Of a stretch of 64,000 nt of DNA, positions 12,274 to 62,645 are shown one piece after another. The stretch is from Paraspadella gotoi. Lineage: Eukaryota; Animalia; Chaetognatha. Positions within the stretch are counted from its first letter, which is position 1. Each line of letters opens with the position of its first letter. Location: NCBI GenBank assembly GCA_051294375.1, contig JBJCIZ010000239.1, positions 2,002,581 through 2,066,580 on the forward strand. The letters are read 5' to 3'. The notes under the pieces were generated by a model. That model was not told the origin of the DNA and did no database searches. It was given only the letters and a program-made list of their open reading frames with translations. A program made the translations under genes and the position numbers.

Positions 12274-13696
12274 CTGGAGGTGGGGTTGGAATAAAAAAAA
12301 CTATTTATCTATTTGTTTAAATACTTTTAATAATAAAACTACTAAAAAATAATTTTGAAAAGGACGAAATACCCTTGGTTTTATTTTATATTGATCAGTA
12401 GTAGAATTAACCGGATTAAACCGGATTAAACCGACACAATTTTGAAACAAGATATTATTTTCGTTTTTGACCCAATAAACTTTTAGGATTCGTATTCACT
12501 TTAAATTAATCGCCGATCAAATACGAAATAAAATGCACCTCGAAATGATTTCACTCTGCAATACGAGATATTATTCTAATTATTATCATTATCATCATTA
12601 ATGGATTGCCTTCAACGACCGGATATTATTTTTAAAAAATCTGTCATTTTAATGTAGCCCCCCCCCACCCGTTTGTTAAAGGACAGGTCGTGACTTGCCC
12701 TCTCTCTTTTCCGCGGTCATGTAACGTTAATCTCTATTATCCTTTCAAAAAAAAAGATAACTAAACAATAACATTCTCTGACAGTTTTCGGGGAGAATAT
12801 AAGTAATGCTAAAAAATTGATATTATGAGATTATTTTTTTATTTTTTTTGACGTAATTGATATATTCCCGAGACGGAACAAGGACGAATTCTTTTCGTCT
12901 CAAGAGAATTTTTAAATGAAATCGATAAATGATGCATTGCGGGGGGTGGGGGGGTGAGGTTTAAGTGTGTGTGTGTTGGCTTTGTGTGTAGTATCGTTGN
13001 NNNNNNNNNNNNNNNNNNNNNNNNNNNNNNNNNNNNNNNNNNNNNNNNNNNNNNNNNNNNNNNNNNNNNNNNNNNNNNNNNNNNNNNNNNNNNNNNNNNN
13101 NNNNNNNNNNNNNNNNNNNNNNNNNNNNNNNNNNNNNNNNNNNNNNNNNNNNNNNNNNNNNNNNNNNNNNNNNNNNNNNNNNNNNNNNNNNNNNNNNNNN
13201 NNNNNNNNNNNNNNNNNNNNNNNNNNNNNNNNNNNNNNNNNNNNNNNNNNNNNNNNNNNNTCTCTCATAAATCGTCGAGGGCTGGCAATTTGGACGCCGG
13301 GATTAAACATTCGTATTAACGCGTCTGTACCTAGTTGACTGCCGACGACGACGACGACTACAACAACAACAACAACGCACCTGGAGAGAGAAAATCGATG
13401 GTTTTAATTACAACCTTTTTCGCGCAAAGAATCCTGAAAGTTTCGATTTGGATTTTTCTTTCTCTTTCTATTTCTTTCCTTCTTTCTTTCTTTCTTTCTC
13501 ATTCTCCCTTTTTGTCTCTCTTTTTTTCTCCCTTTCAATCTCTTTCAATCTCTTTTTCTATCTCTTTATCTCTCTCTCTCTCTCTTTTCTTTCTCTTTCT
13601 TATTTTTCTCTCTCTTTCTTTCTCTTTTACCCTCTCTTTTTTGACTTCGTTTTTATTTCTATCACTCTCTCACTCACTCTCTCTCTCTCTTTCTCT

Positions 13697-13738
<42 letters not shown>

Positions 13739-14188
13739 TCTCTCTCTCTCTCTTTCTCTCTCTGCTCTCTGCGTACTCGTTCTCAGTTCGCCTTTTCTGC
13801 CTTTCCTTCATTTCGCCTTTCCCTTTCGTTAATCGCCTTTCTTTCTTTAATTCGTCTTTCTCTCTTTCGCCTGCCGCCCCCTCCTACCGCCCCCCCTCAA
13901 TCGCCCTCGGTTGTCGGTTAATCAGAGTAGGGCGGGTGGACGGGCGAAACCCCCAGGTGTCGGACAGCGTCGGACGAACCGACAGTAAAAACTCCGCCTC
14001 TCAAAATCTGAAGAGAGTTTGTTAGCCAATCGGGGTAAAACGTCAACGTAATCTAATCGCCCTGTACTAATAAATATTTTAAATACGTACGAACGATTTG
14101 TCTATTACAAATTCTGATTCCTAGTAATATTGGAACGATAGATTTCAAACTGTTAAAAGCGAAATATTAACGATTAGGTGCCCAAATT

Positions 14189-14458
14189 GGCTCTCTTTTA
14201 CAAAAGCGCTTTATTTTTGTTTCTTTGTTTCTTAATTTTAACTTTAATATTTTAACCCAATTTTTAACATTAATCCTAATCCTAATCTTTCTAAAGCTTA
14301 ATTGTTAACCCTAATCATTAATCTTAATCACTAACCTAATCCCTATCCCTCATCTATAACCAAATCCCTAACCCTAACCCTCCACCTTATCTTTAAACCA
14401 AAAAACCAACATTATTCCGAATATGAGACGAAACGGGGCGCTTTGGGGAAATAAAGCC
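14189..14458 (+). mobile_element. MITE-like element with an internal degenerate (CCCTAA)n tract
   Basis: Imperfect ~21-bp inverted ends GGCTCTTTTTTACAAAAGCGC / GCGCTTTGGGGAAATAAAGCC around a CCTAAT/CCCTAA tract. Confidence 0.6.
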
Positions 14459-15246
14459 ATCGAACTTTGGCCTTCTTTTCCGCCCTCTTCCGTTACAGTA
14501 GTAATATGATTAAGCTTATTAATTAAAGTAACTTTATTATTTTTCATGTTTTTTTCCCTTTTAATCGTTCGTTAGTGTCCTTTTTTGTACTATGATTTAG
14601 CTTATTAATTAAAGTAACTTTTTTAAATGTTTTTTTCTTTTTAATTTTCGACCCTTGTCCTTTTGTTCGTGAGTGACCTTTTATTTTTGTGGTTTGGAAG
14701 GAATTAAGATGACGGAAATGACGACGGCGGGACAGCGACTATAAATACGACGATCAAGACGACGACGACGACGAGCAAGACGACAACGATGAAGACAAAG
14801 AATAAGAAGACGATTATGAAGACGACGACGACGACGACGATGAGCACGACAAAGAAAAAGATAGCGACGCCCTACCGCGTCGNNNNNNNNNNNNNNNNNN
14901 NNNNNNNNNNNNNNNNNNNNNNNNNNNNNNNNNNNNNNNNNNNNNNNNNNNNNNNNNNNNNNNNNACAGAAGAGAGAGAGAAGAGAGAGAATTCTCTTCT
15001 CTTTTAGAGACGGATCCCCGACAACGCTGGATATCCAAGACGTCGGAGTCTTTAAAAATCATTTTCGCCTCCGGCAATTCTCTTTCCTAAGACGACGATA
15101 GCGATGACTCATGTCGGACGTGACGCCGAGAGAAAAGAGCGCCGGGGAACGCCGCTTCGATTGACGGGCGACTCCGAGGCGGATATTTAACGCCTGCAGG
15201 TGGAGGAGTTGAGGGGCGGTCTGGTCTTTGGGTTTTGCATGGAAGG

Positions 15247-15589
15247 GGCACGGTTTTCCGAAAGCGACTCATTTTTGGTTCTTTATTCCTTAACTTAATT
15301 ATTAATCTAATATTTAAACCTTAATTTGATATAAAAATTTTAACCTAATCCTTAATCGTAAACTCTAATACTTAATTCTAATCCTTAATCCTTAACTCTA
15401 ATCCTTAATTTTAATCCTTAATCCTTAATTCTAATCCTTAATTCTAAACTCTAATCCTCAATTCTAATCCCTATTCTAATGTACAACCATAATCCCTAAT
15501 CCTATCGATTGAATTAGGATGATTCAATTTAAAAAATCGATTTATTTTGAAATTTAATCCGAAAGTAAGCGCTTTTGAAAAATAGAGCC
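15247..15589 (+). mobile_element. MITE-like element, same family
   Basis: GGCACGGTTTTCCGAAAGCG ... (CCTTAA-like)n ... GCGCTTTTGAAAAATAGAGCC. Confidence 0.55.
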
Positions 15590-16829
15590 GATTTGAAAAA
15601 GACGTCAAGTGGTGGTTAGGGCGGAGGGGCTGGCGAAGGGGATGAGCGGAGGACAATTGCCGACGAGATATTTGACAAGTCATGAAGGAAAGGCTTGTCA
15701 AGATTCCAATGACAATACAGATGACAAAAAAACCTTCCCATTCTCTCTCTCTCTCGTCTGCTCTCCTCCTCTTCTCGTCTTCGCTGCTGCTAGCTTTTTT
15801 CGCTCCTAGTAAACGTTGGTCATTGGGTTCAGTTATGTCTCATTGTCGTAATATTAGTAGTTGTCATCATCATGGGGAACATTGTCGTCGTCGTCATTAT
15901 CACGAAAAGCTTGGCCGTCATAGTCAAAGTCATAGTCTGGTTGTCATCATCGTCATCATCGTCATCGTCGTCGTCATCGTCGTCGTCGTTTCGATGTCGA
16001 TTTGTCTTCATGACGAATTTGTGGTTAAACTTAAAGAGGCGAGGAATTCTATCGATTGATATTTCGTGAGGGAAAAAAGTGCGGGCGAGCCGCGGCGGCG
16101 GCGGCGGCGGCTGCGGCAGCGGCGGCGGTAGCGGCGCCCGAGGCGAAAGAAAATTGATAAATGGCAAACGCGGATGAATAAGTTATTATCGGGGATTAAA
16201 ATTGAATATTGAGAAAGAATGGTGAAAAAAAAGCAAGCAATAAAAAGAGCAAGAAAAAAAATAAAAGCAAGCAATTTCTAGGAAGAGAAGGAATTGTCAA
16301 TAAGCGAAATCAAGAGAAGAAACTAAAAAAAGAAAAAAATAAATTGAAAACGAAAAAAAAGAAGAGAAAATAGAATAACTAATAAACAGAAAAAAAACCA
16401 TGTGAATTTCCATAATTCAATAATTTCAATAAACGATATACAACGGAAGAAACAAAGAGATGAAACATAGGCAAGAAACAAGGGGATGAAAGAAGAAATA
16501 AAAAACAAAGTACATCGAGCCGACAAAGAATCGAATCTCGTACCGACAAAAGTGACAGAAATCGTAAAAACCGACAGAAATGAGAGGAACCGACGGTTAT
16601 TAATAGAAAAACCGACGAGTGATTCTTTTGCCGACGTCGTGTCTTGTCGGTTTCTTACCGACAAAGAAAAAGGGGATCGGGATATTGTTGGAATGATGTA
16701 GAAATAATGTGAAAATGATGCAGAGAGGATGTAGAAATGTCATTTCAACATCATTATTCCCTTTTTATACATTGATTTGGAAATAAAGTAATGAACTAAA
16801 TACGATTTAATAAAGTTGAAATTATATTG

Positions 16830-17005
16830 ATAGGGAAGCCAGGAACTCTGGGAGTGAATAAACGAGACTGTGAGAGAGTCTTGATTGAAAGCTTGCAGGG
16901 ACCTGCTATGTCATTATCTTATAAGAGTGATGGAGGCCTTAAACCACCAAAGCCTGTCCAAAGTCAGGGGCAAGATAGCTTATTTATTAAATGAATGGAT
17001 AATTT
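16830..17005 (+). repeat. Dispersed repeat (SINE-like tail)
   Basis: The motif GGCCTTAAACCACCAAAGCCTGTCCAAAGTCAGGGGCAAGATAGCTTATTTATT recurs at ~5015-5080, 18066-18130 (inverted), ~59810-59853 and 62265-62500 (inverted, interrupted by a GACCAATAA array). Confidence 0.7.
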
Positions 17006-17653
17006 TTATATTGGTTGTACCAATTTCATAATAATGAAGCAGAAATGAATAAAAAGAAAGATGATCCATCATCGTCTTTCATAAAGAAAAGGAGTAATCC
17101 GGAGGAACGCCTCTCGAGACAGACAAACAGTTTCGAGAGTCGGGGGAGGCGGGCTGTGGGAGAGAGTATGCGTCCATTCTTCTCTTTAGGAGAGAGTATT
17201 TATGGTCGGTCGTTTTAATTTGGGAAAATTGATTGAATTTTTATGACGAAAAATTTTAGGGTCGGGTATTTTAGCAACTTCTAAAGATTAACTATTAGGT
17301 TGTGGAATCCACAATGTGGATATCTGTTACTAATCTTTTAATCTAATAACTATTATATATTATCTATTATCTTTTTATATATTACTCTACGTAATGGAAT
17401 GAGGAATTTTAAAACGATAATGTACTAAACCTTACAAAATAACGAATATAAAACTCTTTCAATCAACGCTTAACTTTAAGCCGCATAGTTAAGCTTATTT
17501 TAAAGGTTTTTCTCATAATTAAAAAGAAGAGTAAAAAAAGGACGGAGGAACTGAGAGCTGAACTCTCAAAAAATAAACAAGAAATCAAATTCTGGGGAAA
17601 AAAATTCTTTCTTTTTTTTTTTTTTAGAAGATTCTTCCTTTGGGCCAAAGGCG

Positions 17654-17690
<37 letters not shown>

Positions 17691-17795
17691 TCATCGTCCC
17701 TCGTCATTCGGCCCTCGAGAGGTTCGAAGGAGAATCGTAAACAAAAGAACAGAAAACTGAGATGAGGCGGAACCGGATTTCGTTTGCCTTTTGTT

Positions 17796-17912
17796 TATAT
17801 GTGAATGTTATTTAGTAAAGTTATACTAGGTTTGTTATAAACAATAGCGGAATGTTATATGTGAATGTTATTTAGTATAGTTATACTAGGTTTGTTATAA
17901 ACAATAGCGGAA
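17796..17912. repeat. Near-perfect 60-bp tandem duplication
   Basis: TATATGTGAATGTTATTTAGTA.AGTTATACTAGGTTTGTTATAAACAATAGCGGAA occurs twice at period 60. Confidence 0.9.
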
Positions 17913-18228
17913 AACGAAACGGTTTTTTTTTATATCAAAAGAAAAATATCTTGAGCCGGAAAAAAAATATCGATAAATCGATTGGGAAAACAGAACTAAA
18001 AATTCCGAAAAGCCAATTACCAATTTTTTTTTATATCAATCACTATTGAATGAAATTGGCACAACCAAAATTATCCATTCATTTAATAAATAAGCTATCT
18101 TGCCCCTGACTTTGTTGTTTTAAGGCCTCAATGTTATAAAATGATTTTTACGCAAAAAATTTAAACACTTCCACAATCCCAACCCATTTCCCCCCCCCAT
18201 CGACCTTCCATACCCCAGACCGACTCAC

Positions 18229-18564: not shown

Positions 18565-18600
<36 letters not shown>

Positions 18601-22517: not shown

Positions 22518-22570
<53 letters not shown>

Positions 22571-36019: not shown

Positions 36020-36441
36020 CTTTTGAGGTTTTGGAAGGTAAGGGGATTAATCGATTTTGTATTAAATTGTTTTATATATGTAAATAAATTAATTATGAAT
36101 TTATTAAGTAAATGGTTTAAATATTTTACAAGTTTAAAAATAAATTTTAAACCAACACTAGAATTCGCAAATTCAAGGAAAGAAAAACATTTTAATTTTT
36201 TTCCATGAAAATAAACGAAGATTTATAATCTCATTTACATATAGCAGCAAATCTAATAATGAAAATTTTTAAATCTTAATTAAGGATTATAAGTTTTAGA
36301 TAAGATTTTTCCACGCAAATATGATAAAAGTAGAACAAAATAAGATAAATTAAAAAAAACACGCAAAGCCACAATAAACATATTTGACATAATAATAAAT
36401 AAACAACAAAAAATCAAGCGCCAAACTTCCCCCAACTTCAC

Positions 36442-36828: not shown

Positions 36829-37119
36829 CTGTTGGGGGTGCAGTGGGAGTGATGAGGATTGAGCAGTGATAAGGTGGGTGGGGGTGTTGAGATGTGATGG
36901 ATGTAGGAGCTTTGTGATAAATTTTTCTTCGAGTTATGACAAAATGCTTGAAACAATTACAATTATAAACAATTACTGAAAGGGTCATTAATGTTCCAAA
37001 AAAATCCCATAATTAACAAATAAAAAAATATAAAAAATAAACAAAAATGAACAAAAACAATTAAAAACAAAACAAAAAATAAAGCTAATAAAAGCCACAA
37101 AAGAGAAAAAATCCCTGAC

Positions 37120-38606: not shown

Positions 38607-39451
38607 CTGTAAGAAAAAAAAGAGTATCATCATATTATTCATAACTCCGAATGTTCTTTAAAGAGGAACAAACTCCATCCATGGCTACTAAAGCGCAGTA
38701 AAAATTCTAAATTTAACTTTAATTAAAATCCTAAAAGTGAGGAACGAACAATATTAAGCTAATGAACATTTAGTTATAAAAAAAATTTATAATAAATTTT
38801 ACAATTTAAGCAGTAGGACATTTATACCAGTACTAATCCAATAAATTTTAGCATTTCAAAATAGTTTTTTGTATGATTTTTTTGAAGATTTTGATATAAA
38901 AAAAATAACTTTTTTTAAAAAATTTTTTCATTAAGTTGATCAAATATAAAAAAGACCTATATTTTAAGCTAAAAATTAAAATATATATTAAATATAGTTT
39001 TTTTAACCCACTTTATGTAAGAATTTTTAAAAATGATTTATATTTTCTTTTATCAACTTTTGACAAGGAATTCAAATATGTAATCAAAATTAAGAAAAGC
39101 CTATTTTGAAATTTTTCGATTTTATAAGGATAATACTATATATAAATATATATATTATATTACAAAAATTTAAGAATATAAAATTATTTTTTTTAATAAA
39201 TTAATATTCACTGATGGCATGTTGTTCATAATTGACATTTAGAATTTTTGTATATAACTTTCACTACACTAATGGCTACTAAATAGGCTAGAACCTCTTA
39301 TTCAGTGACAAACATAAAAAAATATGTAGCATTATATTTAGAATAAATTAAACAAAATAATAATAATGAAAAATCCTAAATTTTCTCTTTTCACTGCCGA
39401 TGTTCATTTGTTTCCTCTCAAACTTCATCTCCCAATACGACCACTACCGAC

Positions 39452-39613: not shown

Positions 39614-39946
39614 CTAAGGGTTTTGGCAAAAGGGGGGGAAAAAAAAGGGGAAAGATGTGCGCCGAGTTTTTGGATCGAACGATTAAATGTAAATTGTAAT
39701 TCTGGTTTTTTTTAATCGTTAATTTATAACTCAATTCGTTAATTCATTTCAAAGTTAGTTCAGTCATTGTGTCATTCGTTTACTATTATTTTTATACCAT
39801 TTATTCCTTTCCATAACCATAATTTTATAATTCCTTAAATTCACTAATTGGTTTAATTCATTTAGCCCCTAGTTCCTTTTTTAACTTTCATCCCTTCTCT
39901 CTCATTAATTACTAACATTCATTCATTCATTCATTCCCAATCTCAC

Positions 39947-40301: not shown

Positions 40302-40541
40302 CTGTGGGTTTGGATGGGGGGGATAACAAAAAACTGAACAAATTTAACAATTGAAAATTAATTACTAAGACGGTGGATTTTAATGTTTTACTGTTTACAG
40401 CGGCCAATGAAGTCGGGAGCAAGTATTCGCCAAAAAGAAAAAAAATGAAAAAAAGTTTAAAAAAACACGAAACGAGACCAAATTAAAACAAAACACTAAC
40501 CCCCCCGTTTTAACCTCACCCCACGAACCCACCCCACTCAC

Positions 40542-40778: not shown

Positions 40779-41188
40779 CTGTTTGGGGGGGGGGAAGGGA
40801 AGGAAAGGGAAGGGAAAAGGAAAAAGGGAAAGTGAAAATATGGAACGGAGGAAATGTTTTTTTTATACTCAAAATCAGAATAAAAACTTGTAACAATCGA
40901 ATTAAAGAATGATACATATGACATACGGTCTAAAACTTAAATAAGATTGGGTTAAGGATTATATATAATAAAATAATAATTTAAGTTAAGTATTAAATTA
41001 AAAATTGAATTTTATCATTAAGAATCTTAATGCAGCGCTTTCGGTAAATAGTGCCCAACTTCTTTTCAATTCAGATAATTTCATCATTTAAGCAAAAATC
41101 AGTTCAAACCTTTATTTCAATCCCAACCTCAATCCTCGTCCCTAATCCCCTTCCCCGATTCCTAATCGCCAAATTCCCCCCGACCGAC

Positions 41189-41576: not shown

Positions 41577-44500
41577 TGTGTTTTTTTGGCTTAACAAACA
41601 GCAAATCAACTATACCAATATGTGTAAAAAATGGCCGGACAGACAGACATAGGCGATCCAACGAAAAGTGACTTAAGAGTTGCTCCGCGATACTCGCGGT
41701 CAACTAAAAATAGGGAAAACAAAATGAGTAAAGGAGAAAGAAGGGATTGAAAAGAGAAAAGAAGGGGTTGAAACAGAAAAGGATCTGAAAAGAGAAAAGA
41801 AGGTATTGAAAACAGAAAAGGCGATTGAAAACAGAAAGCAGGGATGAAATAGAAAAGAAGGGATTGAAAACAGAAAGAAGGGATTGGAAAAACAGAAAAG
41901 AAGGGATTGAAAACAGAAAGAAGGGATTTAAAAACAGGAAAAGAAGGGATTTGAAACAGAAAGAAGGGATTGAAACAGAGAAAAGAAGGATTTCAAAACA
42001 GACAAAGAATGGATTGAAAACAGCAAAGGGAGATCTATCGTTTCTCAAACTGAACACGGAAAATGAAACGAAACAAGTTTAAACGAGTTGGGAAATCGTT
42101 TTATAACCATGTTACGCGAATATAATATAATATATTTTCATAAAGGAAATTACTTCACTTTAAATTGGTTATTAAATACTTTTTCCAATTAACTTAAAAA
42201 TTTGGCTACAATCAACAGAAAAATCATTTCAATAATACCACCCAAGTTTGACTTTGGTGACTTAAAAATAGGACCATCGGATACTAACACAGTGAAGAGA
42301 CAAGTACTTATATTATTAGATTATTAGAACAGATCCCTGAGCTCGGATTCAGGCTGTATAACCACCGGAATGTTTACAGCGGGTTAGCGCGCCCGTCCCT
42401 CTTAACTGCTAGGCGTACACCGGGATTAGAACCCGGGCACCCTTGGGTTGGGGGCGAATAGACTTGCCTCAGGCCACCAATGGCCGGTGGATGAACGGTT
42501 GGTGGAATATATTTCCACCGATTGATTCTTCGTTGCGTTTGGATAGATAAAATTGATATCTTTTTTTCTCCACAAGCAAAGATCTCTCAGTAGCTCGAAT
42601 AAACAACAGACAAGTTGGCCTTATTTTACACTCTTCATCAGCGTTAAAGTAAACATTATTTAATTTAAAAACTAAACTGATAAGTTTCGACTGTCAGGTT
42701 TAAAGGTTTAATATTTTTAACCAATTTTTTTTTTTCTGTTCCTGTTCTAAATCCCACATTGTTTTTGGACTACGTATGGAGAGACACCCGTGCGTTGCCC
42801 GCGTGGAGTGAAAAGCTTCGACGTCCGCGGAGTCATCGGCTGAGGCAACATCATCGATTAGAGGACCGCCAAAATTATTAGGAGAAGTGGGAGAACAAGG
42901 GAAATAATAATATCACGTCTATTATTTTTACTTTGCCAAATGATTTTAATTGCCTCCTCGCGCGAGGCGAACAATTTTAAACTCCGTTGGGGTTAAATTT
43001 TTTCAACTGCCTTTTTAACTCACGTTTTTCAACATTTTTAAACTTAAACATTTCTCGTCGACTATACTCTGTTTGTTATATTTAAAGACTTAACCAAACG
43101 AGTTCCAAAAAATCTGAGTCATTTAAGAAGGACCAAAGTCAGCCATACGTTGATCTGAAACCAAATTTACAAAGGCTCCAAACTCACTGTCACTCTGGGG
43201 CCAATCCAAGTTGGAATCTGTTAGAATCGGACCCCCTCGTTCAAGATCTATAAGCGATGGAACGATACGAGGTCAGGCTGCGAAAGGAAGATGCTCAACG
43301 GTTGGCTGATAAAAGCTTCGAATTCCTCAATGTTTAACTCACAAGAACTGCTAAAGAGATCGTTCCAAGCTATGTTTTACGAAAGCATTCTCTATTGCAG
43401 CATTATATTAAAAAAATTCTAACAAATGAAAATTAATATTTAAAATAAATATATAGAATAAAGATTCAAGTTAAGGTTTTAGAATAAGGAATAAGACATA
43501 TAAAACATTTAAATTCTCTTTTTAATAATATTTGAAATAAATTATAATACATTTAATTTTAATTTTAAGGATAGAATTTAGCACTTCTGTAAAGATTAGT
43601 TTGACCGCCTGTTTAATTTCTACAAACAGACCTAACATTATATCTTTGTCTATATCAATTTGAGAGATCATAATTATCTCTACCATTTATTTTCTGTTAT
43701 TACACTACCTCGCTCTCATTTTAAAAAGAATCTAAAAAATATATTTGCTTCCTTTAACTTTAAAAGTCGCTCGTATCCGACGGCGTCGCTTCTGATATCT
43801 ATATGTAGGGAAAAATAACTTAAAAGAACAATATGAAAAAACAAATGTGAACACATATATATTTAAAAATTAAAAGCCGATCTTGTTGTAATAACGTTTT
43901 AATATTGCAAAACTAATTTGCTTGGAATGCTTATTACAACTAAAAAAAATCTTTTTTACAAATATTATATCATAAAAAAACGACATTCATAACTAACGAA
44001 ATGATCAATATTAAATCTTATTTACAATAATTAATTTGTCTATTTGTCTCAGCAGTGAGTAGCTGAATTAAAAAAAGCCTGCTACAAGGTAAAAATAAGG
44101 TATTAATAATAACATCGGCATCATAAAAGTAACGTAAACGGTTAATAAAAAAAATTAAAAAAGAACTTCATTATTGGTTAAAGATTTTCTCTATAAAGTC
44201 ATATTACTGAATGTTCAAACAAACATAAGGAGAAAAAATGGATATATAAAAAGTGTTCATTCGTGTATCAATTGAGCACATTCATTGTTTAATTGCTTAA
44301 AATCATTATATCTTTAAACATTGTGTCGTAATTTTAAAGTGTATACCAGTTGCTTACTAATTAGAAAATTAAAAAAAAAAAACAACAAAACTTACATAAT
44401 TCAAACAAACGAGAAAAGTTTCCCGCCTTCTCCACCTTACTACAACCTCCTTGACTAATTCGTAGTAATACGTTAACAGCCTATTAAGTATATATAATGC

Positions 44501-47500
44501 ATTCTCTCCCTCTCTCCCCTTTTTCTAATTCATTTCCCGCCCTCTCTCTTCCCTCTCCTCCCTCCTCCCCTGCCCTGAGCTCTCCTTTATTCTGATCGTT
44601 CTCGATCGACACGTAATTGGGCATTTGCTCCGGCAGCGCCGCTCGAATTCTCCTCCACGTGACCACCTTGCCGCTCCAGCTCGTCGTATTCCCGCTGTAT
44701 GGAGTCGCAATGAGCGTCTCTGTGCTGTCGAGCCGGGCCGATTCATCCCGACAAATACAGGAAAGAGGTCCTCGAGTATCTCGAGAAGCTGTCTGACGGC
44801 GGACTCGGCGGCGTCCAACCTTCTTTCGTCAAGACTCCAACAGCGTCCGGGTCGGCACTTCCCGTCCTTAAGAAATCAAGTGGAATGTCCGAAGCCCAAA
44901 GTCGCTCGGAGGCATCAGGACATTGTCGGCCAACGCGGGCCGGTGTCGGCAGGCGTCGTCCGGCCACGCGAGGGCGTCGTCGGCTCGGGCTGCGTCGGAG
45001 GAGCCGGCAGTCGGCGCTGCCGCGGCCGGAGTTTGACCTCGGTCGCGTGACGACGGATTCGAGAAGAGCTTTTGAAGGTTTTGAGGTAAGGGGATTAATC
45101 GATTGTATTAAATTGTTTTATATATGAAATAAATTATTTATGAATTTATAAGTAAATGGTTTAAAGTATTTTACAAGTTTAATAAATAATAACATTAAAG
45201 CCAATCAAGAGAAACATTTAATTTTTTTCCATGAAATAAACGAAGATTTATAATCTCATTTACATAATAGCAGAAATCTAATAATGAAAATTAAAATCTT
45301 TTAATTAAGGATTATTAAGTAAAATTAGATAAGATTTTTCCACGCAAATATGATAAAAGATAGAAACAAAAAATAAGTAATTAAAAAAAAACACGCAAAG
45401 CCACAATAAACATATTTGACATAATAAAAATAAAGCAACAAAAATAAAGCGCCAAACTTCCCCAACTTCCACCTCCGCCTCTCGACCACCTCCTCCCCCC
45501 TTCCCCCTCGTCTCTACATGTCCTCCACATCTCCCCAAATCTCTCTCCACGGGACCGACGATCACTCTCCGAACTCCAACGAAAAAGCGTCCGGCGAAGG
45601 CGTCTCGGCGTCGCCGCCGCGGTGAGGAGCTCCCGATTAGCGGCCTTGGCCGCGCTTTGGCGTCCTCGAGGCGCGGCGCAACCTCCTAACCCTTCACGCA
45701 CTCGTCGGCTTCGGCCTGGAGTTTCCACGCGGTCGTTGAAGTGTCGCAAGAGTCTCCAGCGTCTCCTCCGCTCCTTCACACGATTCCGTCGGCGGCGGAT
45801 TTTGGCGACTGCGCGGGTGGAAGGCGCTTCCCGCGTCGGCGAGAAGCTCGTAGACCTGTGGGGTTGTGCAGTGGGAGTATGAGGATTGAGCAGTATAAGG
45901 TGGGTGGGGGTCTGAGATGTGATGGATGTAGGAGCTTTGTGATAAATTTTTCTTCGAGTTTATGAAGAATGCTTGGAACAATTACAATTATCATACTGAA
46001 AGGGTACATTAATGTTCCAAAAAATCCCATAATTAGCAAATAAAAAATATAAAAAATAAACAAAAATGAACAAAAAATTAAACAAAATCAAAACAATAAA
46101 AGCTAATAACAAAGCCACAAAAGAGAAAAAATCCCTACCTGCCCCAAAAGCGTAGACTCGTGCTACATCTTTCGGCCACGCCCATTTCGCCTCTCTCCTT
46201 GCAAGCTCCGCGTAATCGCCTTCAATTTCTCCGCCGCCGACGTCACCGCAAGACGCGCTCGTACTCGGCGGCGTCCTTGCGCGATCTCTCCGGCGCTCAC
46301 GGTCGCCGCTCCTGGCGTCGAGAACGGAGCCGCGAATTTTCTCGGCGTCCCGTCCCGCGCCGCCGTTGCTTTATCGAAACCAGCGCCGCAGCGGACCCAG
46401 CACCGTCGCCCGCGAATCCGCGCCGCAGCCTCTCCTTAAGCGCGCAATCACGCCGGACGTCGCCGTTCTTGCTGCAACGCCTCGTCCAACATGGCCGCCG
46501 CCGGAGCGCGACGTGGGCCAAAGCCTCTTCGGCGTCGGCCGACACGTTGGCGGCCTTTGGTTGTTGATGATCGGCGAGATGTCGGGTCTTTAGAGCGATG
46601 GCGGGCCAATTCCGTTCGGCTTCTTCTTCTCGTTCCCTCTGCCACACTTGGCGGTCCCCGGTCGCATCTGCTCCTTCTCCCTCTATCAGCTCGTTCCAGA
46701 TCCTTCAGAAGCTTCTCGATCTCTCAAACGCTTCGTCGACGTCGTCCCTCGTCTTCCTCGCAGCCCTCCAACTTTCTTCGGCCTTCATCGTCTTGTCGGC
46801 CAACATCTCCGCGTCGTCCTTCAACTCCTTCAACGCTTCCTTCAACTCTTTCGCCCGATGCAGCCGACCCTCCTCGGTCGATTCCTCTTCCTCCACCTTC
46901 GTCCTCAACACCTCCAAACATCCCGTCAACTTCCTTCAAAAGATTCTCGAATTGCGTGTCGTTGATATCCACGGGCCAATTTGGGTCCTCCGTGAGCAAA
47001 CGGCGTTTGAATCGCTCCACCGCCTGACGATGGTCGTCGACCTTGTCCCGAATCAGTCGTAACAGGCGCGGACATTCCCTGCACTGCCTTCGATCGTCCT
47101 CAGACCAAACATGTTCTCCGCGCACTGTCGCAACTGGACGCCTTCCACGTTCTCCCGACAGTGCATTGACCGTTGTCCCGGCACTGCGCCGTTTCGCTCC
47201 CTTCCGGATCGCACTTGCAGTCTCGGCATCCGGCGAAGGAGAACCGATAGAATCCGCGGCGCATTGGGCGCAACGCCTGCCGTTGACGCCGCTCTTACAG
47301 GCGCACTGACCAGTCGCCTGATCGCATTCATCTTGAAGAGAACCCGTGGGTCGCAGGAGCAAGGTTGACACCGCGACCCGAGCTAGTTCCAGTAGGCCGG
47401 CGCCGCAGCGATTGCAGCGCCGACCGGAGATCGTGGTCGGCAGGGGCATTTGCCGCTGCGTTGGTCGCAGGAGAGGAAGAGGAGGAAGAAGAGAGAAGAG

Positions 47501-50450
47501 AGGAAGAAGAGATGGTGCCGTTTGGATGGCATTCGCATGGCAAACATTTGCCACCGGAAACGACCGCTTGCCAAGAAAACCGCGGCGCAGCGGTCGCAGT
47601 GAAAACCTGTAAGAAAAAAAAGAGTATCATCATATTATTCATAAACTCCGAATGTTCTTTAAAGAGGAACAAACTCCATCCATGGCTACTAAAGCGCAGT
47701 AAAAATTCTAAATTTAACTTTAATTAAAATCCAAAAGTGAGGAACGAACAATATTAAGCTAATGAACATTTAGTTATAAAAAAAATTTATAATAAATTTT
47801 ACAATTTAAGCAGTAGGACATTTATAGCCTAGTACTAATCCAATAAATTTTAGCATTTCAAAATAGTTTTTTGTAGATTTTTTTTTAAATTTTTGATATA
47901 AAAAAATTTAAAACTTAAGTTGATCAAATATAAAAAGACCTATATTTTAAGTAAAAAATTAAAAATATTATATTAAATATAGTTTTTTAACCCACTTTAT
48001 GTAAGAATTTTTAAAATGATTATATTTTCTTTTATCAATTTTGACAAGAATCTCCAAATATGTAATCAAAAATAGAAAAGCCTATATTTGAAATTTTTCG
48101 ATTTTATAAGATTAATCTATTATATAATAATATTATATTATATTACAAAATTTAAGAATATTAAAATTATTTTTTTTACAAATAATATTCACTGATGGCA
48201 TGTGTTCATAATTGACATTTAGAATTTTGTATATAACTTTCACTACACTCTAATGGCTTACTAAATAGGCTAGAACTCTTATCAGTGACAAACATAAAAA
48301 CAATATGTAGCATTATATTATAGAATAAATTAATCAAAAAATAATAATAAAAAATCCTAAAATTTTCTCTTTTCACTGCCTATGGTCATTGTTTCCTCTC
48401 ACAACATTCATCTCCCAATACGACCACTAACCGACCTCCAGTGTTGCGAATGCACACTTGAGACACTCGCCCGTCGTTCGATCGCAATTGGCGACGCGTT
48501 GGCGTCGATTGTTGCCCGAACATTCGCACGGGCGACACTCGCAGCCCGGACGTCCGATCTCGTCCGTGTTCACGCGGAGGTCGCCGAATGCCCGTCTAAG
48601 GGTTTGGCAAAAGGGGGGGAAAAAAAAGGGGAAAGATGTGCGCGAGTTTTTGGATCGAAACGATTAAATGTAAATTGTAATTCTGGTTTTTTTAATCGTA
48701 ATTTATAACTTCAATTCGTTAATTCATTTCAAAGTTAATTCAATCTTGTGTCATTCGTTTACTATTATTTTTTATACCATTTATTCCTTTCCATAACCAT
48801 AATTTAATATAATCCTCCTAAATTCACTAATTGGTTTAATTCATTTAGCCCCTAGTTCCTCTCTTTTAACTTTCATCCCTTCTCTCTCATTAATTACTAA
48901 CATTCATTCATTCATTCATTCCCAATCTCACCAGCGCAAACGTCGCACCGGGTCCCAGTATATCCTTCGGACAAGCGGTACACACCACGCCCCCGTCGTC
49001 CGGTGCGTCGCGCAAACCCCGCCTCTCGGACAAGGACACTGCGCAATCCTCGGCCGTTCCCCGGAGTTGCGTCGCCGTAGAATCCCGGGCGCGCAACGTT
49101 CGCAGTGTCCGCCGACGGTTGTGTGTCGCAGATGCAGCGTCCCGTCCGAACGTCGCAGTGCGGAGTGAGAGTTACAGGTTGCAAGGGACGAGGGTCAAGG
49201 GTCGTCGTCTTGAGATTGGCGACGAAATCCGGGGGCGCAACTTTCGCAGAATTGACCACGTAGCCGGAGGGACAGGTGCACTGTGGTTTGGATGCGAGGG
49301 ATAACCAAAAAACTGAACAAATTAACAATTGAAAATTAAATTACTAAGACGATGGATTTTATGTTTACTGTTTACAGCGGCAATGAAGTCGGGCAAGTAT
49401 TCGCAAAAAGAAAAAAAAAATGAAAAAAAGTTTTAAAAAACACGAAACGAGACCAAAATAAAACAAAACACTAACCCCCCGTTTTAACCTCACCCCACGA
49501 ACCCCACCCACTCACCTGTTCCACGAACTTTTCCGCTCCCCCTCCGCGCCCCGGTTCGCTCGAGCGGGCCCCTAGCCTCACTTCGTCCACTTCCCCGTCT
49601 TCGCCTCGCTCGTAGTTGGCGCGGATCCGCAGCGCCGTCAGTTGGCCATCAGCGTTGGGAATTGCAGCGCCGACAAGTCGCGCGTCCAGAGAAGTTAGGT
49701 CGCTCGTGAGGCGAACTTGTAGCGGCGCCACTGGTTGGTCGGGAGCGGTGCCCTGTTGGGGTATCGGAAGGGAAGGAAAGGAAGGGAAAAGGGAGAAGGT
49801 GAAATAATTGAGACCGGAGGGAATGTTTTTATATTACTCAAAATCAATAAAACTTGTAACAATCGAATTAAAAGAATGATACATATGACATACGTCTAAA
49901 ACTTAAATTAAAAGTGGGTTAAGGATTATATATAATAAAATAATAATTTAGTTAAGTATTAAATTAAAAATTGAATTTATATAATTAATAAAGAGCGCTT
50001 TCGGTAAATAGTGACCCCAATCAGATAATTTCATCATTGAAGCATCAAAGTTCAAACCTTTATTTCAATCCCAACCTCAATCCCGCCCTAATCCCCTCCC
50101 GATTCCTATCCCACAAATCCCCGACCGACCTGCGCGAAATCGGCGCCATGACCTTCGTTCCCGGTCCGCCCCTTCCAACCACCACCGCGGCGCGCGACGC
50201 CCGCGGGAATCCGGCGCCGAGACGCGGGAGCCGGAATTCGAGGAATCGATCGTAGGAGAATTTCCGGTCGCCGAGAGAAATCGTGACGGCGCACACGAAG
50301 TAGACCTGAAATTTAGGGGGGGGAGGGGCGGAACGGAAAATCTCATTTGCATATTGGAGTTAAGGGGGATTTAGAACGTAAGTTTTATTATCTTTTGACT
50401 TGCGAAACGAATATTAAATAAGTATATTGTGTCGCAGAAAATCGTATTGA
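41577..50450. other. ~8.9-kb error-rich tandem duplicate of 32605-41551 (laminin exons 11-17 and 3' flank); probable assembly overfill or other haplotype
   Basis: Colinear end to end with the block on the other side of the 25-N gap at 41552-41576. Differences are mostly random 1-bp indels in exons and introns alike. Confidence 0.88.
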
Positions 50451-50847
50451 GCTTCGCCTATATTCCATTTTTTCTCGTTCTGTCCCACTCTTCCCCCTCT
50501 CTCTCTTTCTCCCTCCACCTTCATTTCCCCATTCAGTCAAAATTACAGACTTGAGACAACATATATAAGAATATATAATATTATTCGCACAATAGGTCAT
50601 GAGCAAGAAATTATATTTCAACTTTTGATGTCTTTAAGGGCTTTCTCCCGATAAGCTCGTATATAATTTAAATATGTAATCGAAATGTCCTGGTTAAATC
50701 GGACGTGTGCCGATACAAAGTTAAGATAATGTTAATTAATAACGCCTACTTCCTAAGTTGATAGTGAAAACAAAATTAAAATATTATCAATAACAATATT
50801 TAATGAGATACAAATAAAATTGCAACTTGAACCATCATTCGACTCAC

Positions 50848-50962: not shown

Positions 50963-51321
50963 CTGGGAAGATTAGAATGGATGGCGTGGATTAGAGACAA
51001 TTAAAGTTGCATTTAATAAGATGTCAGAAACGTGTAAGAATTATACGTTGCTTTAGAAAATGTAATTTTGCGATCGTTTATCCATAGCAAAATTGTAATA
51101 AAAAGTAATTTTTCATTATTTTTTTCTTGCTTCAAGTTTATTTAGTTTACTAATTTTCTAATTTACTTAGTTATTTACTTCAGAATTTATTTAGTTAATT
51201 TCTTTAGTTTTTAAAAGGTAAGTGCTTTTTTTTTTGGGCCATAAGACTAAGATTGATACTGGACGACCCTTCCCCCATCCTTAAACCACCCTCGACGATC
51301 CTCTCCAAGTCGCGCGATCAC

Positions 51322-52126: not shown

Positions 52127-52398
52127 CTTTTGTTTTCGAGGAAAAGGGGAGGGAAGGCAGATGATTGGTCGCTTGATTTAAGATTCTCTGACAAGCGATT
52201 GGTCAAATTTAAGTTTTTTAACACGAGTTAATTTTTTTGGCGGGATAAAAATACTGGAAAAATATTATACGTAAAAGCCTAATATGTTTCAATGAGTTTC
52301 ATTAAAATTACGGCTGAAATTCCAATTCTTAATCAGATTTCAAAGTTTAAATATTTAATGAACTCAGTAAGTTTCAACTGCGTTTCCGACAGCCTTAC

Positions 52399-56782: not shown

Positions 56783-57161
56783 CTGATTTGAGTTTTTTTT
56801 TTTTTTTGGTAGGGGAGCAAATATCAAACTGGTATAATACGTATTAATGGCTTATTTTTAAAAATATATTAAACCGCACGTGAGTGTAAACGTTTTAATC
56901 AACCACTTATACAATAAGAGAGACACAAGGGCCATTTTAATCCGATGTTTAACGCGAAACAAATCAAAAAACTTAAGACTTAACCATTCATCAGATTAAC
57001 AATCATAAACATTTAAAAATAAAGACCCCAAAAAAAACAAAGAAACATATAATAATAAACTACAAAAAAAAAAAACACAACGAAAATAAAAACAATAGTA
57101 AGAACGAACCAAACAAGAAACACGGACGGAAACACAAGATTCTATTCTGACCGACCGACAC

Positions 57162-57311: not shown

Positions 57312-58069
57312 CTGAGATCGGAGCGGTCGGAGGGAATTTAGGAGTGGCGAGAGGGAAAGAGTGTGGGAGAGAGAGAGAGGGGGGAAAAGGGGGTTGTGAA
57401 TTGTGAAAATTTGTGAAATTGTGAAAAGTTTTTAAAAAAAGCTTTTATTTTGATTTTGATTTATTTGTTATAATATTTTTGTGTTAAAGAGTTTAAATGT
57501 AATGGATTATTTATCGATGTTTTTGGATGGGACGATTGATTGTAGAAAAGAAAATTAAAACAAGAAGGAGACGAAAAGTTAGTAAAGTAAATACAAAATG
57601 AACACATTTGTTTATACATTTATACATTTAACACTCATTTTTATTTTATTCGTTCATTTGTTAATGTTATTCATTCATTGACCTCTATGTCTCACGGCCT
57701 CTTCTCTTCCTCTTTTTCTTTCTCTCTCTCTCTCTCTCTATCTCCTATCCTCTCTTCTCTCTCTTTTTCTCTCTCTTTTTTCCTTTCGTTTCTCTCTCTC
57801 TCTCTCCTCCGTCTGCTCTCCTCTCTCGTCATCTCTCTCTCCAATCACCTCTCTCTCTCTCTCTTCTCTCTGTGTGCTCTGCAGATCCCTTAATAAGGTT
57901 CATTTTTACAACTCTCTCTCTCTCTCTCTTCTTCTCGTCTTTTTCTTCTCTCATCTCGTCTCTCTCTATTCTATGCTCTCTCGAACGGTCCTTAATTAGG
58001 TTACGTCGTTTTATACACTCTCTCTCTGACTCTCCCTCTCTCTCTTCTCTCTCTCTCATTCTCTCTCTC

Positions 58070-58105
<36 letters not shown>

Positions 58106-58154
58106 TCCTCGTCTCTCCCTCTCCTCCCTCTGCCTCTCCCCTCAAAACATCCAC

Positions 58155-58500: not shown

Positions 58501-59152
58501 CTGGCGTTTATTTTGTTGTTTGCGGTGTGTGAGTGGGAGGGGGAGGAAAAGAGGGGGGTGAAAGTTGTGATTAGTTTTTGGGGTTAGAATGGGGGAGGGC
58601 AGAGAAAAAGGATAAATGTGAACTTGGGGATAATGTTTCATAGGTCTTATGACCGCTGAAATGACAATATTTGATGCTTTCTTATTTGTACAGGTCAGGC
58701 TCTCACGCCTATCTGTATCTCTAATTGGTTTGTTTTTAATCGTAGACTGGGTATTTTACAGCTCAACCACTGCCGAATATTTTATTGATAGATGGGTTAA
58801 AAAATTTAAAAAAAAAAACAAAGAAAAAAAACAAACAACAAAACAACCATGAGATTAGAAATAAGACACAAAATTTCAAACAATCCAAAAACCCCCCCAA
58901 AAAAAATTGTAACTTTATATTTCTACCTGTTTTTGCTAATTTTTTATTGACAAAACAATGAAAATTTAAAAGAGTTGTAATAATAACATTATCAGAATAT
59001 TGAATAAAAAAAAATTGTGTACTTTCGACAATTTAAAAATAGCTTCTCTGCCTTCCGAATCTTTTAAGCAGACACTTTTAAGTAATTTCTTTGCAGAAAG
59101 CATCTTCGATTTTTCAAAACCGTAACCTCCTCGTGCACTCGCCCTACTAAAC

Positions 59153-59348: not shown

Positions 59349-59417
59349 CTGTTCCGGGGGTTGGCGCGGGTGGATGAAGAGCAAGACGTTTTTCAATTAA
59401 AGCTTTAATTAAACTTT

Positions 59418-59566
59418 AATATTAATAAAGTATATTAAGTAATATTGAGGAATATTAAGTTTCATATTGAAGTTTAATACTAAATATAAAATTTTCAATA
59501 TTAAGTTTCATTATTAAAGTTTCAATATTAAGTTTCAATATAAAGTTTCAATAATTAAATTTTCAA
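59418..59566. repeat. ~13-bp (AATATTAAGTTTC)n degenerate tandem array
   Basis: Direct reading. Confidence 0.75.
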
Positions 59567-60356
59567 GCTGTAATGTCCGGTTTCCTGTGATCGACAGAAT
59601 TTTTAGGACTGCTACTCAATCACACGCCGCAATGGCTAAGAAGCAATTGTTTCTTTCCTTCGCCTCAGCGATTTAAAAAAACATAGAAAATAGGAGTGAA
59701 ATAAATCACTGTTTATTATATTTATTGTTTAAATTGTATTACATTCTATCACTGCTTATCATAACTAGTGATGCAATATCACTCTGGGAGTTTATTGAAC
59801 TAAACTTCAACCCCCATCATAGCCCTGTCCAAAGTCAGGAGGCAAAAGGCTTGTGGAGGGACGAAGATACACACGAGTTGTGGTCATAATTTTAGAACCT
59901 GGCGCCATGCAATTTTTTGGGCAATAGAATTGGTCGAAATCTCTATTTCCACCCGATACAAACACTTTTCAGGCCAGACGCAATATTCCGACAGTAGATT
60001 TTTTCCCCTGGTAAAGAATTCCTTAAAATGATCACAACGTCAACGTCACCGTTTCAAAAATATTTTATTGTTCGTTCCCGACCTTTGAAAAAAAAGTTGA
60101 AATTCTCTTCTCGCAAATCTCTAATGGCTAATAAATAACGAAAATATTAATGACTGGAGAAAAGTTCCAATTTTGAGAGGCAAAGGTGAAATAAATCGTT
60201 TTTTTTTTAAGCAAAAAAAAAAAAAAAAAAACCTGAGATTTTTATTTCAAATTTTTTCGACCCAAAATGTTAATTCGTTTGATTTGAATTATTAATAATA
60301 CCGTTAGGTGATTGGTTTATAGGAGCATAAAATAAAAAGAGTCGAAAAGATATGGC

Positions 60357-60428
60357 TCCATGTGGTCTAGTGGGTTAGGATTCGGCGACTCTCACCGCCG
60401 GGCCGGGGTTCGATTCCCCGCAATGGGA
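60357..60428 (+). tRNA. tRNA-Glu (anticodon CTC), in laminin intron 1, antisense
   Basis: TCCATGTGGTCTAGTGGGTTAGGATTCGGCGACTCTCACCGCCGGGCCGGGGTTCGATTCCCCGCAATGGGA closely follows metazoan tRNA-Glu-CTC, with A box, B box GGTTCGATTCC and a TTTT terminator just after. A few 1-nt indels suggest read noise or a pseudogene. Confidence 0.8.
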
Positions 60429-60838
60429 AATTTTCAAAAAATTTTTGAAACGTTATAGTTCTTTTAAAATGTAAGTTATCGCTGCCCCTAAATTGGAACA
60501 AGCTGTGGTGGTTTAAACCAAATGAAAGGTATACATGAATGATTTTTAAAAAAGAATGTTTCAATTGTATACTAAAAGGACCATTCCTTATGTACAGGAA
60601 TCATTCATTTAAAAATCAATTTGGACTTTTTTAAAAAGCTGTGCATTGTATTTTATTGTTTAAAAACGGATTCTCAATTCCCTTCCTGGTCCCTCTGAGC
60701 CAATTTTTTTCTGGTTTCTATACAGATCCGCGACGTTTCTTAAAAAACAAAAAAAACACTAAACAACAAAAAAAATAAACAGAATTCTCTTTTTTTAACT
60801 TTTTAGGTCTAAAAGTCATTTGGCTCTGGGAAAAAGGA

Positions 60839-61272
60839 CGGTGTTATTTCCGCAGAACGCCCAATTTTAACTTATAATTCGGAATTAGGTTTCATTTTTT
60901 TTAGTTAAAGACGTAAAATTAAAGTTAGGGGTTAAGAATTAGGTTGAGGATTAGGATCAGGATATAGGTTAATGAATTAGATAAGGATAGGTTAAGGATT
61001 TAGATTAAAGGATTGATTAAGGATTAAGATTAAGGAGAGGGTTAAGGATTAGGTTGTGATTGAGGTTAATGACATTTAAGTTAAAGACTATGTATTTGAA
61101 ATTAAGGATAAGAAGTTTAGGATTAGGTTAGGGTTATCCCATTAAGGTTAGGGGATTTAGGGTTAGATATTGATTATAAGTTTAAAAATATATTTTTAAA
61201 AGTTTTTTAAGGTTAAAAATTAAGTTCTGGGAAAAACTAGCAAAAAGTGGGAAGCTCTCGAAAAGAGAGCCG
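60839..61272 (-). mobile_element. MITE-like element, same family, reversed
   Basis: CGGTGTTATTTCCGCAGAACGCCC ... (TTAGGG/TTAAGG)n ... GCTCTCGAAAAGAGAGCCG. Confidence 0.55.
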
Positions 61273-61829
61273 ACATTTAAGTCGCTTCGGTTCCGCAATC
61301 GACAGGAAATAAGAACTTGGGAAGTCCTTGTTTCTTTTATGTTTTTTTTTTAGTTTGTTTTCTTTTGAGAGGGTCGGTAAAAGGGGGGCGGAGGAGGTGG
61401 AGAGATAGAGTTGCTGTGGGGAAGAGAGAGAGATTTCTGATTTTTAGGTGAAATGTGTAATGAGAATTTGAGGAGAAATGAAAAAAAGGGAGAGGACGGA
61501 AAGAGAAACAGGGTGGCTTTTGAATGGAAGGAAATAAGGGAAAGAAGAAAGAAGAAGGAAAGAAAGAGAGACGAATGTTAAAATAAAGAGAGAGAAGAAA
61601 GAAAGAAAAAATAAGTATTATTAATAACGAAAAAAGAAAAGAGATGAAAGAAAGTAGGAAAGAAGGATAAGAAAGAAGACTGTAAATCTGGTTTCTCATC
61701 GAGAATTTTTTACTTCTTCAATCTCTCTCACAAAGAGGGTGGTGCGAAATTCTAACCCTAAAATGCACTTTGTTCCGCGGCGTCGATAAGACTCTCTCTC
61801 TCTCTCATCTTCTCTCTCTTCTCTCTCGT

Positions 61830-61863
<34 letters not shown>

Positions 61864-62645
61864 CGTGGGCACCGCAGGTTAAATTGGGTCCAAATCGAGT
61901 CGTAAATTGAGTCCAAGAGCCAAAACTTATCCGAGAAATCGAGTAGGCAAAAGAGATAAACAAACAATTACGATCCGCAGATAAAATACTTTTAATATAT
62001 TTGGAGAAAAACCAAGACGGATCTAGTTTTGAAGCTAACAGAGGAAAAATATTAGTATAAATTAGAAATAAAATCGCGTAGTGCATTTGGCGAGAAAAAT
62101 ATTTGTTTGTTTAGAGAATAAAAGAATCAATTTGAGAAACTGTAGAATTTTAATTGTACGCTACTTTTGCGTAGATTTCTTCGTGCCAGTTAATAAAGTT
62201 TTCAACTCTTTTTCTTTTCTTTTTTTAAAAGAATACAAATGAAAATGGGTAAAAATAAATATAAAATAAATAAGGCTAGTATCTTGCCATGACTTTGGAA
62301 CAGGCCTATGGCGGTTTTAAGAGCGAAGTAAAACCAATAAGACCCAATAAGACGAATAGACCTAATAAGAACGCAAATAAGACCAAATAGAGACCAATAA
62401 GACCAAATAAGACCAATAAGACCAATAAGACTGCCATCAATATTACGATAACATGAGCAGGAACTCCCTGCAAAGCTTTTAATCAGACTCGCCAAAGAGT
62501 CAAGAGTGGTCCAGTCCAAACCACCCAGCTAGACCTTCCATAGCTGACTGTCCCTCGACCCCTCCGGGGGGTAGGCCTTTCCCCCACGTGTACCCCCCAA
62601 ACCCCCCCACCCTTTTCTTCCAAAAACCCCGGGGCCAAACTAAAC

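What the first reader, a model, noticed from the sequence alone, without database searches (positions are those of the whole stretch)
12274..62645. Intron ends are mutually complementary: possible structure-based splice-site pairing
Seen: in both genes many introns start with G/U-rich runs and end with C/A-rich runs that are reverse-complementary to the start of the same intron. Integrin intron 1 (~6 kb): UGGGGUAUGGAA (18217-18206) with UUCCAACCCCA (12291-12281), 11 bp plus one bulge, each ~10 nt from the splice site. Laminin intron 1 (~3.3 kb): CCGGGGUUUUUGG...GGGUGG (62632-62607) with CCACCC...CCAACCCCCGG (59373-59354). Intron 12: GUGGGUU-CG-UGGGG (40532-40519) with CCCCA-UCCA-AACCCAC (40319-40304). 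Weaker cases occur in introns 7, 9, 11 and 16. Established: in teleost fish, complementary (AC)n/(GT)n repeats at intron ends bridge splice sites and reduce U2AF2 dependence. Inference: this animal may use an analogous G-run/C-run bridging system with intron-specific arms. G-rich/C-rich composition alone gives chance pairing, so specificity is unproven.
Basis: partly seen in the sequence, partly recalled or inferred. Interest (0 to 1): 0.8.

Follow-up and report, generated by a model that had tools for sequence, protein, structure and literature searches.

The report
G-rich starts, C-rich ends, interchangeable pairing
In two genes of an invertebrate, introns start G-rich and end C-rich, so their ends are predicted to pair, but ends swapped between introns pair about equally well, so these are likely two separate mammal-like splicing signals rather than intron-specific locks.

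Summary
The three quoted arm pairs are present at the stated coordinates in homology-supported introns of a laminin-gamma and an integrin-alpha gene. The real feature is a compositional polarity: in 15 introns with both ends readable, G is higher at the 5' end in 14 and C is higher at the 3' end in all 15. Intron-specific pairing is not supported: native versus swapped ends give p 0.09-0.12 for 30-60-nt windows; helix lengths are equal; pairing across exons is as strong as across introns; 5' G content does not predict 3' C content (rho 0.06); hand-picked arms can be made to favour 4-8 different 3' ends. Against my reading, 80-nt windows show a weak native preference (p 0.007; 0.025 across windows), carried by a (GA)n/(CT)n intron and an (AT)n intron. 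G-run/C-run intron ends are described in humans (Lin 2016), and the scan noted one similar intron in another genome (e1-7499326). What stays interesting is mammal-like G-runs and U-poor, C-rich acceptor tracts in an invertebrate. No RNA data, no orthologous introns; noisy assembly; n = 15.

The parts
12274..18228 (-). Integrin alpha intron 1 (5955 nt), GTGAGT...CTCCAG
   Evidence: Junction reads GALYS|CFY; spliced relative L001 aa 109|110 continuous across it
18206..18217 (-).
   Evidence: in a 250+250 cofold a different G-run, not this arm, takes the 3' arm
12281..12291 (-).
59349..62645 (-). Laminin gamma intron 1 (3297 nt), GTTTAG...GAACAG; arms 62632-62607 and 59373-59354
   Evidence: junction gives the K-R-C motif; nearby exon sequence has single-base errors
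58501..59152 (-). Laminin intron 2 (acceptor could lie 11 nt further on)
57312..58154 (-).
56783..57161 (-). Laminin intron 4: no end pairing
52127..52398 (-). Laminin intron 7
50963..51321 (-). Laminin intron 9
50306..50847 (-). Laminin intron 10 (acceptor taken from the duplicate copy): G-poor start, C-rich end
40779..41188 (-). Laminin intron 11: GGGGA-type start, UCCC-type end; best case for matched ends
   Evidence: 0 of 14 foreign 3' ends pair as well
40302..40541 (-). Laminin intron 12 (240 nt); arms 40532-40519 and 40319-40304
   Evidence: 9 of 14 foreign 3' ends pair as well or better
39614..39946 (-). Laminin intron 13
38607..39451 (-). Laminin intron 14
36829..37119 (-). Laminin intron 15: U-rich, G-poor start but very C-rich end (30 C of 57); counter-example to paired arms
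36020..36426 (-). Laminin intron 16
4230..4625 (-). Integrin intron 4: (AT)-rich, no G-run; second driver of the 80-nt signal
42330..50450 (-). Error-rich second copy of 33396-41551 (laminin exons 11-17), likely an assembly artefact
   Evidence: 89% identity; 195 indel columns in exons; isolated substitutions 2/3/3 by codon position

Best explanation
Introns of these two genes carry G-runs just after the 5' splice site and C-rich, U-poor tracts just before the 3' splice site, and these are likely two independent splice-site signals whose complementarity is a by-product. The G-runs would act as intronic enhancers (protein-bound or G-quadruplex-forming, as in mammals); the C-rich tract would serve as this lineage's pyrimidine tract, read by U2AF or a poly(C)-binding protein. 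Any G-run can pair with any C-tract, so pairing would add at most a generic zipping and is predicted not to choose which splice sites are joined. Shown: polarity, interchangeability in silico. Inferred: the enhancer and tract roles.
For: C-rich ends in 15 of 15 introns but three or more GGG at the start in only 5 of 15; both in 2 of 15. 5' G and 3' C content are uncorrelated: rho 0.06, -0.005, 0.12 at 40, 60, 80 nt. Native vs swapped duplex energy p 0.11, 0.12, 0.09 at 30, 40, 60 nt. Longest Watson-Crick helix 5.20 vs 5.20 at 40 nt. Across-exon pairs -16.3 (n=12) vs across-intron -16.0 (n=13) at 40 nt; -23.6 vs -23.6 at 60 nt. Hand-picked arms from the three showcase 5' ends can be made to rank 4 to 8 different 3' ends of 19 first. 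Integrin intron 1 holds 172 overlapping interior windows that pair with its 5' end as well as the true 3' end. In 4 two-intron folds own-end pairing is mostly lost to exon-loop or skip pairs. Four-G-run motif in 4 of 18 5' ends. Both signals are described separately in mammals: G4 motifs 5.6-fold enriched at 5' splice sites on the RNA strand (10.1101/700575, passages); C-rich tracts bound by alphaCP (PMC4797308, listing and abstract start).
Against: 80- and 100-nt windows favour native pairs (p 0.007 and 0.042; 0.025 corrected over five windows; 0.0055 at 80 nt with a 16th intron), and part survives composition shuffles (excess p 0.019 mono, 0.049 dinucleotide). A binary best-arm test gave p 0.26, 0.03, 0.05 for 12-, 14-, 26-nt arms. 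For laminin introns 1, 9, 11, 12 no interior window rivals the true 3' end. G4 enrichment at splice sites is reported as restricted to mammals and birds, so the enhancer role has no invertebrate precedent in what I read. No binding or splicing data for this animal. n = 15 has little power.
Confidence: 0.5

Rival explanations
1. Generic bridging: the G-rich start pairs with the first free C-tract made after it during transcription, which is normally its own intron's end, so interchangeable arms would still bring the right splice sites together, like bracket matching, and would relax the need for a U-rich tract. Coarse matching of repeat type (GA with CU, AU with AU) would help.
For: Ends pair in 9 of 13 whole-intron folds; mean end-to-end pairs about 17 native, 14 chimeric, 6 shuffled over 9 introns (my averages); U-poor acceptors in 12 of 15; weak native preference at 80 nt; human (GGG)m-(CCC)n precedent.
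Against: No G5-C3 correlation; equal across-exon stability; equilibrium two-intron folds do not favour it; the order-of-synthesis argument is inference and was not simulated; 4 of 13 introns show under 4 end-to-end pairs.
Confidence: 0.27
2. One reading: each intron has its own selected complementary arms that specify splice-site pairing.
For: As quoted, each of the three 5' arms ranks its own 3' end first of 19; intron 11 beats 14 of 14 chimeras; borderline best-arm counts.
Against: The ranking is reproduced by hand-picking for 39 of 162 non-native pairs (12-nt arms); margins are 1.3-2.1 kcal/mol; best-arm energy p 0.16-0.27; the intron-12 3' arm prefers two other 5' ends; arm letters differ between the two assembled copies of intron 12 without compensation.
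Confidence: 0.1
3. No splicing role: the polarity and the few matched ends come from mutational or repeat processes (strand-biased slippage of G/GA and C/CT runs, or decayed inverted ends of transposon-born introns).
Against: The skew is tight to the splice sites (G 0.34 then 0.31, 0.19, 0.16; C 0.42, 0.27, 0.20, 0.17 in successive bins; interior 0.17 each), as expected of splice-related signals; I did not look for target-site duplications.
Confidence: 0.13

Closest known systems
[quoted passage not shown] 2016, PMC4691745; first of 7 parts and keyword passages read)
   Same: G triplets in the first 40 nt and C triplets in the last 40 nt; only slightly more stable than composition-kept shuffles (-113.85 vs -111.47 there); bridging proposed, not shown in the passages read.
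   Different: Invertebrate; only 2 of 15 introns meet the three-and-three rule although all 15 have C-rich ends; no co-occurrence detected here.
Teleost/lamprey (AC)m-(GT)n bridged introns (same paper)
   Same: Low-complexity complementary ends next to the splice sites; interchangeable, non-unique arms; weak pyrimidine tracts.
   Different: Opposite polarity (AC at 5', GT at 3'); co-occur across introns and not exons, which fails here; a third more stable than shuffles; tested by compensatory mutation.
Conserved complementary boxes in Drosophila introns (Raker et al. 2009, PMC2724269; abstract and section 10 read)
   Same: Pairs of 9 nt or more near both ends, enriched in long introns with weak acceptors.
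   Different: Defined by conservation in several species and beating rewired controls; sit about 60 and 80 nt from the sites, clear of the tract; here the arms cover the tract, conservation is untested and rewired controls do as well at short range.
G-run/G-quadruplex elements at mammalian 5' splice sites (10.1101/700575, passages) and alphaCP-bound C-rich tracts (PMC4797308, abstract start only)
   Same: RNA-strand G-runs just downstream of donors; C-rich tracts before acceptors.
   Different: Reported enrichment is limited to mammals and birds among ten species (fly and worm negative); here an invertebrate shows it, on two genes; no link to weak donors is evident here (3 non-consensus and 2 GTGAGT donors among the 5 G-rich starts).

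Membership tests
(GGG)m-(CCC)n / (AC)m-(GT)n bridged introns (Lin 2016) | Complementary low-complexity runs at opposite intron ends (three GGG in first 40 nt and three CCC in last 40 nt) | tested here: inconclusive
   Met by 2 of 15 introns (11, 12); polarity in 14-15 of 15
(GGG)m-(CCC)n / (AC)m-(GT)n bridged introns (Lin 2016) | Runs co-occur more than expected from independent distributions | tested here: not met
   2 of 15 observed, 5/15 x 4/15 x 15 = 1.3 expected; rho 0.06; low power
(GGG)m-(CCC)n / (AC)m-(GT)n bridged introns (Lin 2016) | Pairing favoured across introns, not across exons | tested here: not met
   -16.0 vs -16.3 and -23.6 vs -23.6 kcal/mol; two-intron folds
(GGG)m-(CCC)n / (AC)m-(GT)n bridged introns (Lin 2016) | More stable than composition-preserving shuffles | tested here: inconclusive
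   Excess -0.5 to -0.9 at 40 nt (p 0.08-0.10 against swapped), -2.4 to -3.0 at 80 nt (p 0.02-0.05)
(GGG)m-(CCC)n / (AC)m-(GT)n bridged introns (Lin 2016) | Structure forms, compensatory rescue, reduced U2AF2 dependence | not testable with these tools
   Needs probing and minigenes
Conserved complementary boxes (Raker 2009) | Boxes conserved in orthologous introns of related species | not testable with these tools
   No genome held; the only close relative found, L001, is spliced; laminin scan empty
Conserved complementary boxes (Raker 2009) | Native pairs exceed rewired splice-site controls | tested here: not met
   Helix of 9 bp or more in 3 of 15 native vs 42 of 210 rewired; energy p 0.09-0.12 at 30-60 nt; weak excess only at 80-100 nt
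G-run / G4 intronic enhancers | G-runs enriched on the RNA strand just after the 5' splice site | tested here: met
   G 0.34 and 0.31 in the first two bins vs 0.17 interior; four-run motif in 4 of 18
G-run / G4 intronic enhancers | Bound by hnRNP H/F (recalled) or folded as G4, and enhancing splicing | not testable with these tools
   Only predicted: G4 in the minimum-energy fold of 3 of 18 5' ends

The most novel reading that the evidence does not exclude
This invertebrate lineage has moved a large share of intron definition onto RNA structure: G/GA-rich starts zip co-transcriptionally onto C/CU-rich ends of matching flavour, genome-wide, replacing the U-rich tract and much of the need for U2AF65; an independent invertebrate origin of bridged introns, on a broader scale than in fish.
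Probability: 0.2. Interest if true: 0.7.

Novelty: new variant of a known kind. Interest (0 to 1): 0.3.

Why it matters
G-run enrichment at splice sites is reported as a mammal and bird trait, and G/C bridging was only proposed for human introns. An invertebrate whose introns start G-rich and end with U-poor, C-rich tracts would be an independent test of whether such ends work as protein signals or as RNA bridges. The question is one genome-wide computation away. As it stands, the intron-specific pairing claim rests on hand-picked matches and is not supported.

Tried and rejected
Whole genome: none held, so no genome-wide test. Sequencing runs: 9 of 11 listed runs hold part of the stretch, no RNA holder on record; no reads could be laid, so junctions, arm letters and the duplication are unchecked by reads. 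Laminin relatives: no locus in metagenome contigs; coiled-coil region search empty; best full-length hits 30-39% identical in the top rows. Integrin scan gave 42 loci: one close relative, spliced; no close genomic relative, so no covariation test. The duplicate copy was rejected as a source of compensatory changes because it is error-rich. Control introns from other animals: 12 of 16 candidate gaps could be snapped to GT/AG; 10 from AT-rich loci L022 and L016 show no G-rich start (G 0.03-0.15), 2 from L007 have C-rich ends (0.54, 0.32); a poor control because base composition differs. Left out of the 15-intron set: laminin introns 5, 6, 8 and integrin 2 (N gaps at an end), integrin 5 (no acceptor found), integrin 3 (noisy donor; added). 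The acceptor-like site at 29 has no homology support and served only as a decoy. Lineage: the window's integrin groups with unnamed proteins (L001, P0222, P0223; next hits 39% or less to L001); my guess of an arrow-worm-like marine phylum is untested; keyword passages of two chaetognath papers (PMC12460157, PMC2997562) say nothing on intron-end composition; their supplements were not read. Literature searches for an invertebrate G/C intron-end system returned none; the library is partial and Lin 2016 supplements were not read.
Full report
Setting. The window is an error-rich animal draft with 14 N gaps and two minus-strand genes: laminin gamma (about 62.9 to 35.5 kb; tblastn) and an integrin alpha of the PS1 type (from 18.6 kb). 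Bases 33396-41551 recur at 42330-50450 at 89% identity; the second copy has 195 indel columns in exons and no third-position bias (2/3/3), so it is likely an assembly artefact. Of 18 junctions translated, laminin 1, 6, 7, 9, 12-16 and integrin 1, 2, 4 read through in frame or give the family motif; the others have single-base errors nearby. A spliced relative, L001, confirms integrin introns 1 and 4. Fifteen introns have both ends readable.

Observation. The quoted arms are there and fold at -15.0, -25.9 and -19.6 kcal/mol. The broader pattern is real: G 0.35 at starts vs 0.07 at ends, C 0.09 vs 0.38; 14 of 15 and 15 of 15 (p 0.0008, 0.0007), fading to the interior level of 0.17 within about 100 nt. 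Acceptor tracts are U-poor: U fraction 0.35 or less, and longest U run 4 or less, each in 12 of 15. As a result the ends are predicted to pair: -15.1 vs -5.9 for interior windows; 15 or more end-to-end pairs in 9 of 13 whole-intron folds.

Specificity. Native vs swapped duplex energies: -10.8/-9.6 (30 nt, p 0.11), -15.1/-13.7 (40, p 0.12), -22.6/-20.3 (60, p 0.09), -29.5/-24.5 (80, p 0.007), -32.2/-28.4 (100, p 0.04). The showcase introns rank their own 3' end 3rd, 8th and 13th of 15 at 40 nt. Longest helices are the same for native and swapped pairs at 40 nt (5.20 vs 5.20; 7.00 vs 7.03 with G-U; 9 bp or more in 3 of 15 vs 42 of 210). The quoted 5' arms do rank their own 3' end first of 19, but they were chosen for that: choosing arms the same way makes 39 of 162 non-native pairs rank first against 4 of 9 native (12 nt), and the three showcase 5' ends can each be made to favour 4-8 different 3' ends. 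On the 15 x 15 set this count gave p 0.26, 0.03, 0.05 for three arm lengths and best-arm energy p 0.27, 0.16, 0.21. Lin's discriminating tests fail: G5 and C3 do not covary (rho 0.06), introns 10 and 15 have C-rich ends with G-poor starts, and across-exon pairs equal across-intron pairs. In chimeric introns 9 of 14 foreign ends match or beat intron 12's own, 0 of 14 for intron 11, 13-14 of 14 for introns 15 and 4. In two-intron folds intron 12's bridge drops to 0-1.9 pairs; with intron 13 the exon loop (28.9) and the skip pair (29.4) take over. Integrin intron 1 has 172 interior windows as good as its 3' end; laminin 1, 9, 11, 12 have none and laminin 3 has one.

What counts against my reading. 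The 80-nt preference survives correction over five windows (0.025), a 16th intron (0.0055) and partly the shuffles (p 0.019, 0.049). With 15 introns a modest real effect cannot be excluded.

Mechanism. Most likely (0.5) the G-runs and C-tracts are separate 5' and 3' signals with incidental, interchangeable complementarity. Next (0.27) is generic co-transcriptional zipping, in which each new C-tract takes the free G-run upstream; this is inference and was not simulated. Intron-specific arms (0.1) and neutral repeat dynamics or transposon relics (0.13) follow.

Known systems. Lin 2016 already describes three-GGG/three-CCC ends in 16% of highly structured human introns with a small stability gain, and the fish repeats have AC at the 5' end. 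Raker 2009 boxes are defined by conservation and lie clear of the tract. G4 enrichment at splice sites is reported for mammals and birds only; C-rich tracts bound by alphaCP are known in mammals (abstract start). Membership of the bridged-intron class fails on co-occurrence and on intron-over-exon preference, so I do not file it there. My searches found no invertebrate report. Ten introns from two AT-rich control loci lack G-rich starts, while two from L007 have C-rich ends, so the trait's uniqueness is not established.

Verdict. Observation partly confirmed, interpretation partly supported; a mammal-like end polarity in an invertebrate, not an intron-specific pairing code on present evidence. 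Interest 0.3.

Noticed in passing
window 42330-50450 vs 33396-41551: 8.5-kb tandem second copy of the laminin 3' half at 89% identity, full of frameshifts; smaller repeats at 3798-4228/5936-6349 and 24285-25216/25838-26738. Likely uncorrected long-read gap fill.
   Followed up: partly
window, laminin donors at 62645, 59152, 58154, 57161, 51321, 41188, 39451, 37119, 36426: Nine of 13 laminin introns tested have donors off the GTRAG consensus (GTTTAG twice, GTCGGT twice, GTGGAT, GTGTCG, GTGATC, GTCAGG, GTTTGG), mostly after an exon-terminal AG; may point to relaxed or altered 5' splice-site reading. Not checked by RNA.
   Followed up: no
window 52127, 53124, 36020: Three laminin acceptors end in AAAAG with A/C-rich, nearly U-free upstream sequence; introns 2 and 4 have 4-8% U in the last 30 nt.
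   Followed up: partly
window 57312-58154 and 53124-56582: Laminin introns 3 and 5 are purine/G-skewed in the 5' half and pyrimidine/C-skewed in the 3' half over hundreds of bases, with (GA)n then (CT)n tracts; introns 1 of both genes do not follow this. A GA/CT analogue of the fish AC/GT class is worth a genome-wide count.
   Followed up: partly
window 62400-62570 (-): Laminin intron 1 has a local GC-rich hairpin right after its G-runs and a strong predicted G-quadruplex (-38.5 kcal/mol over the first 80 nt), both competing with long-range pairing.
   Followed up: partly
L001 403-3828: Complete 1141-aa integrin alpha from an unnamed relative; with P0222 and P0223 (71%) it forms an isolated group, next hits 39% or less. 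Useful for placing this animal.
   Followed up: partly
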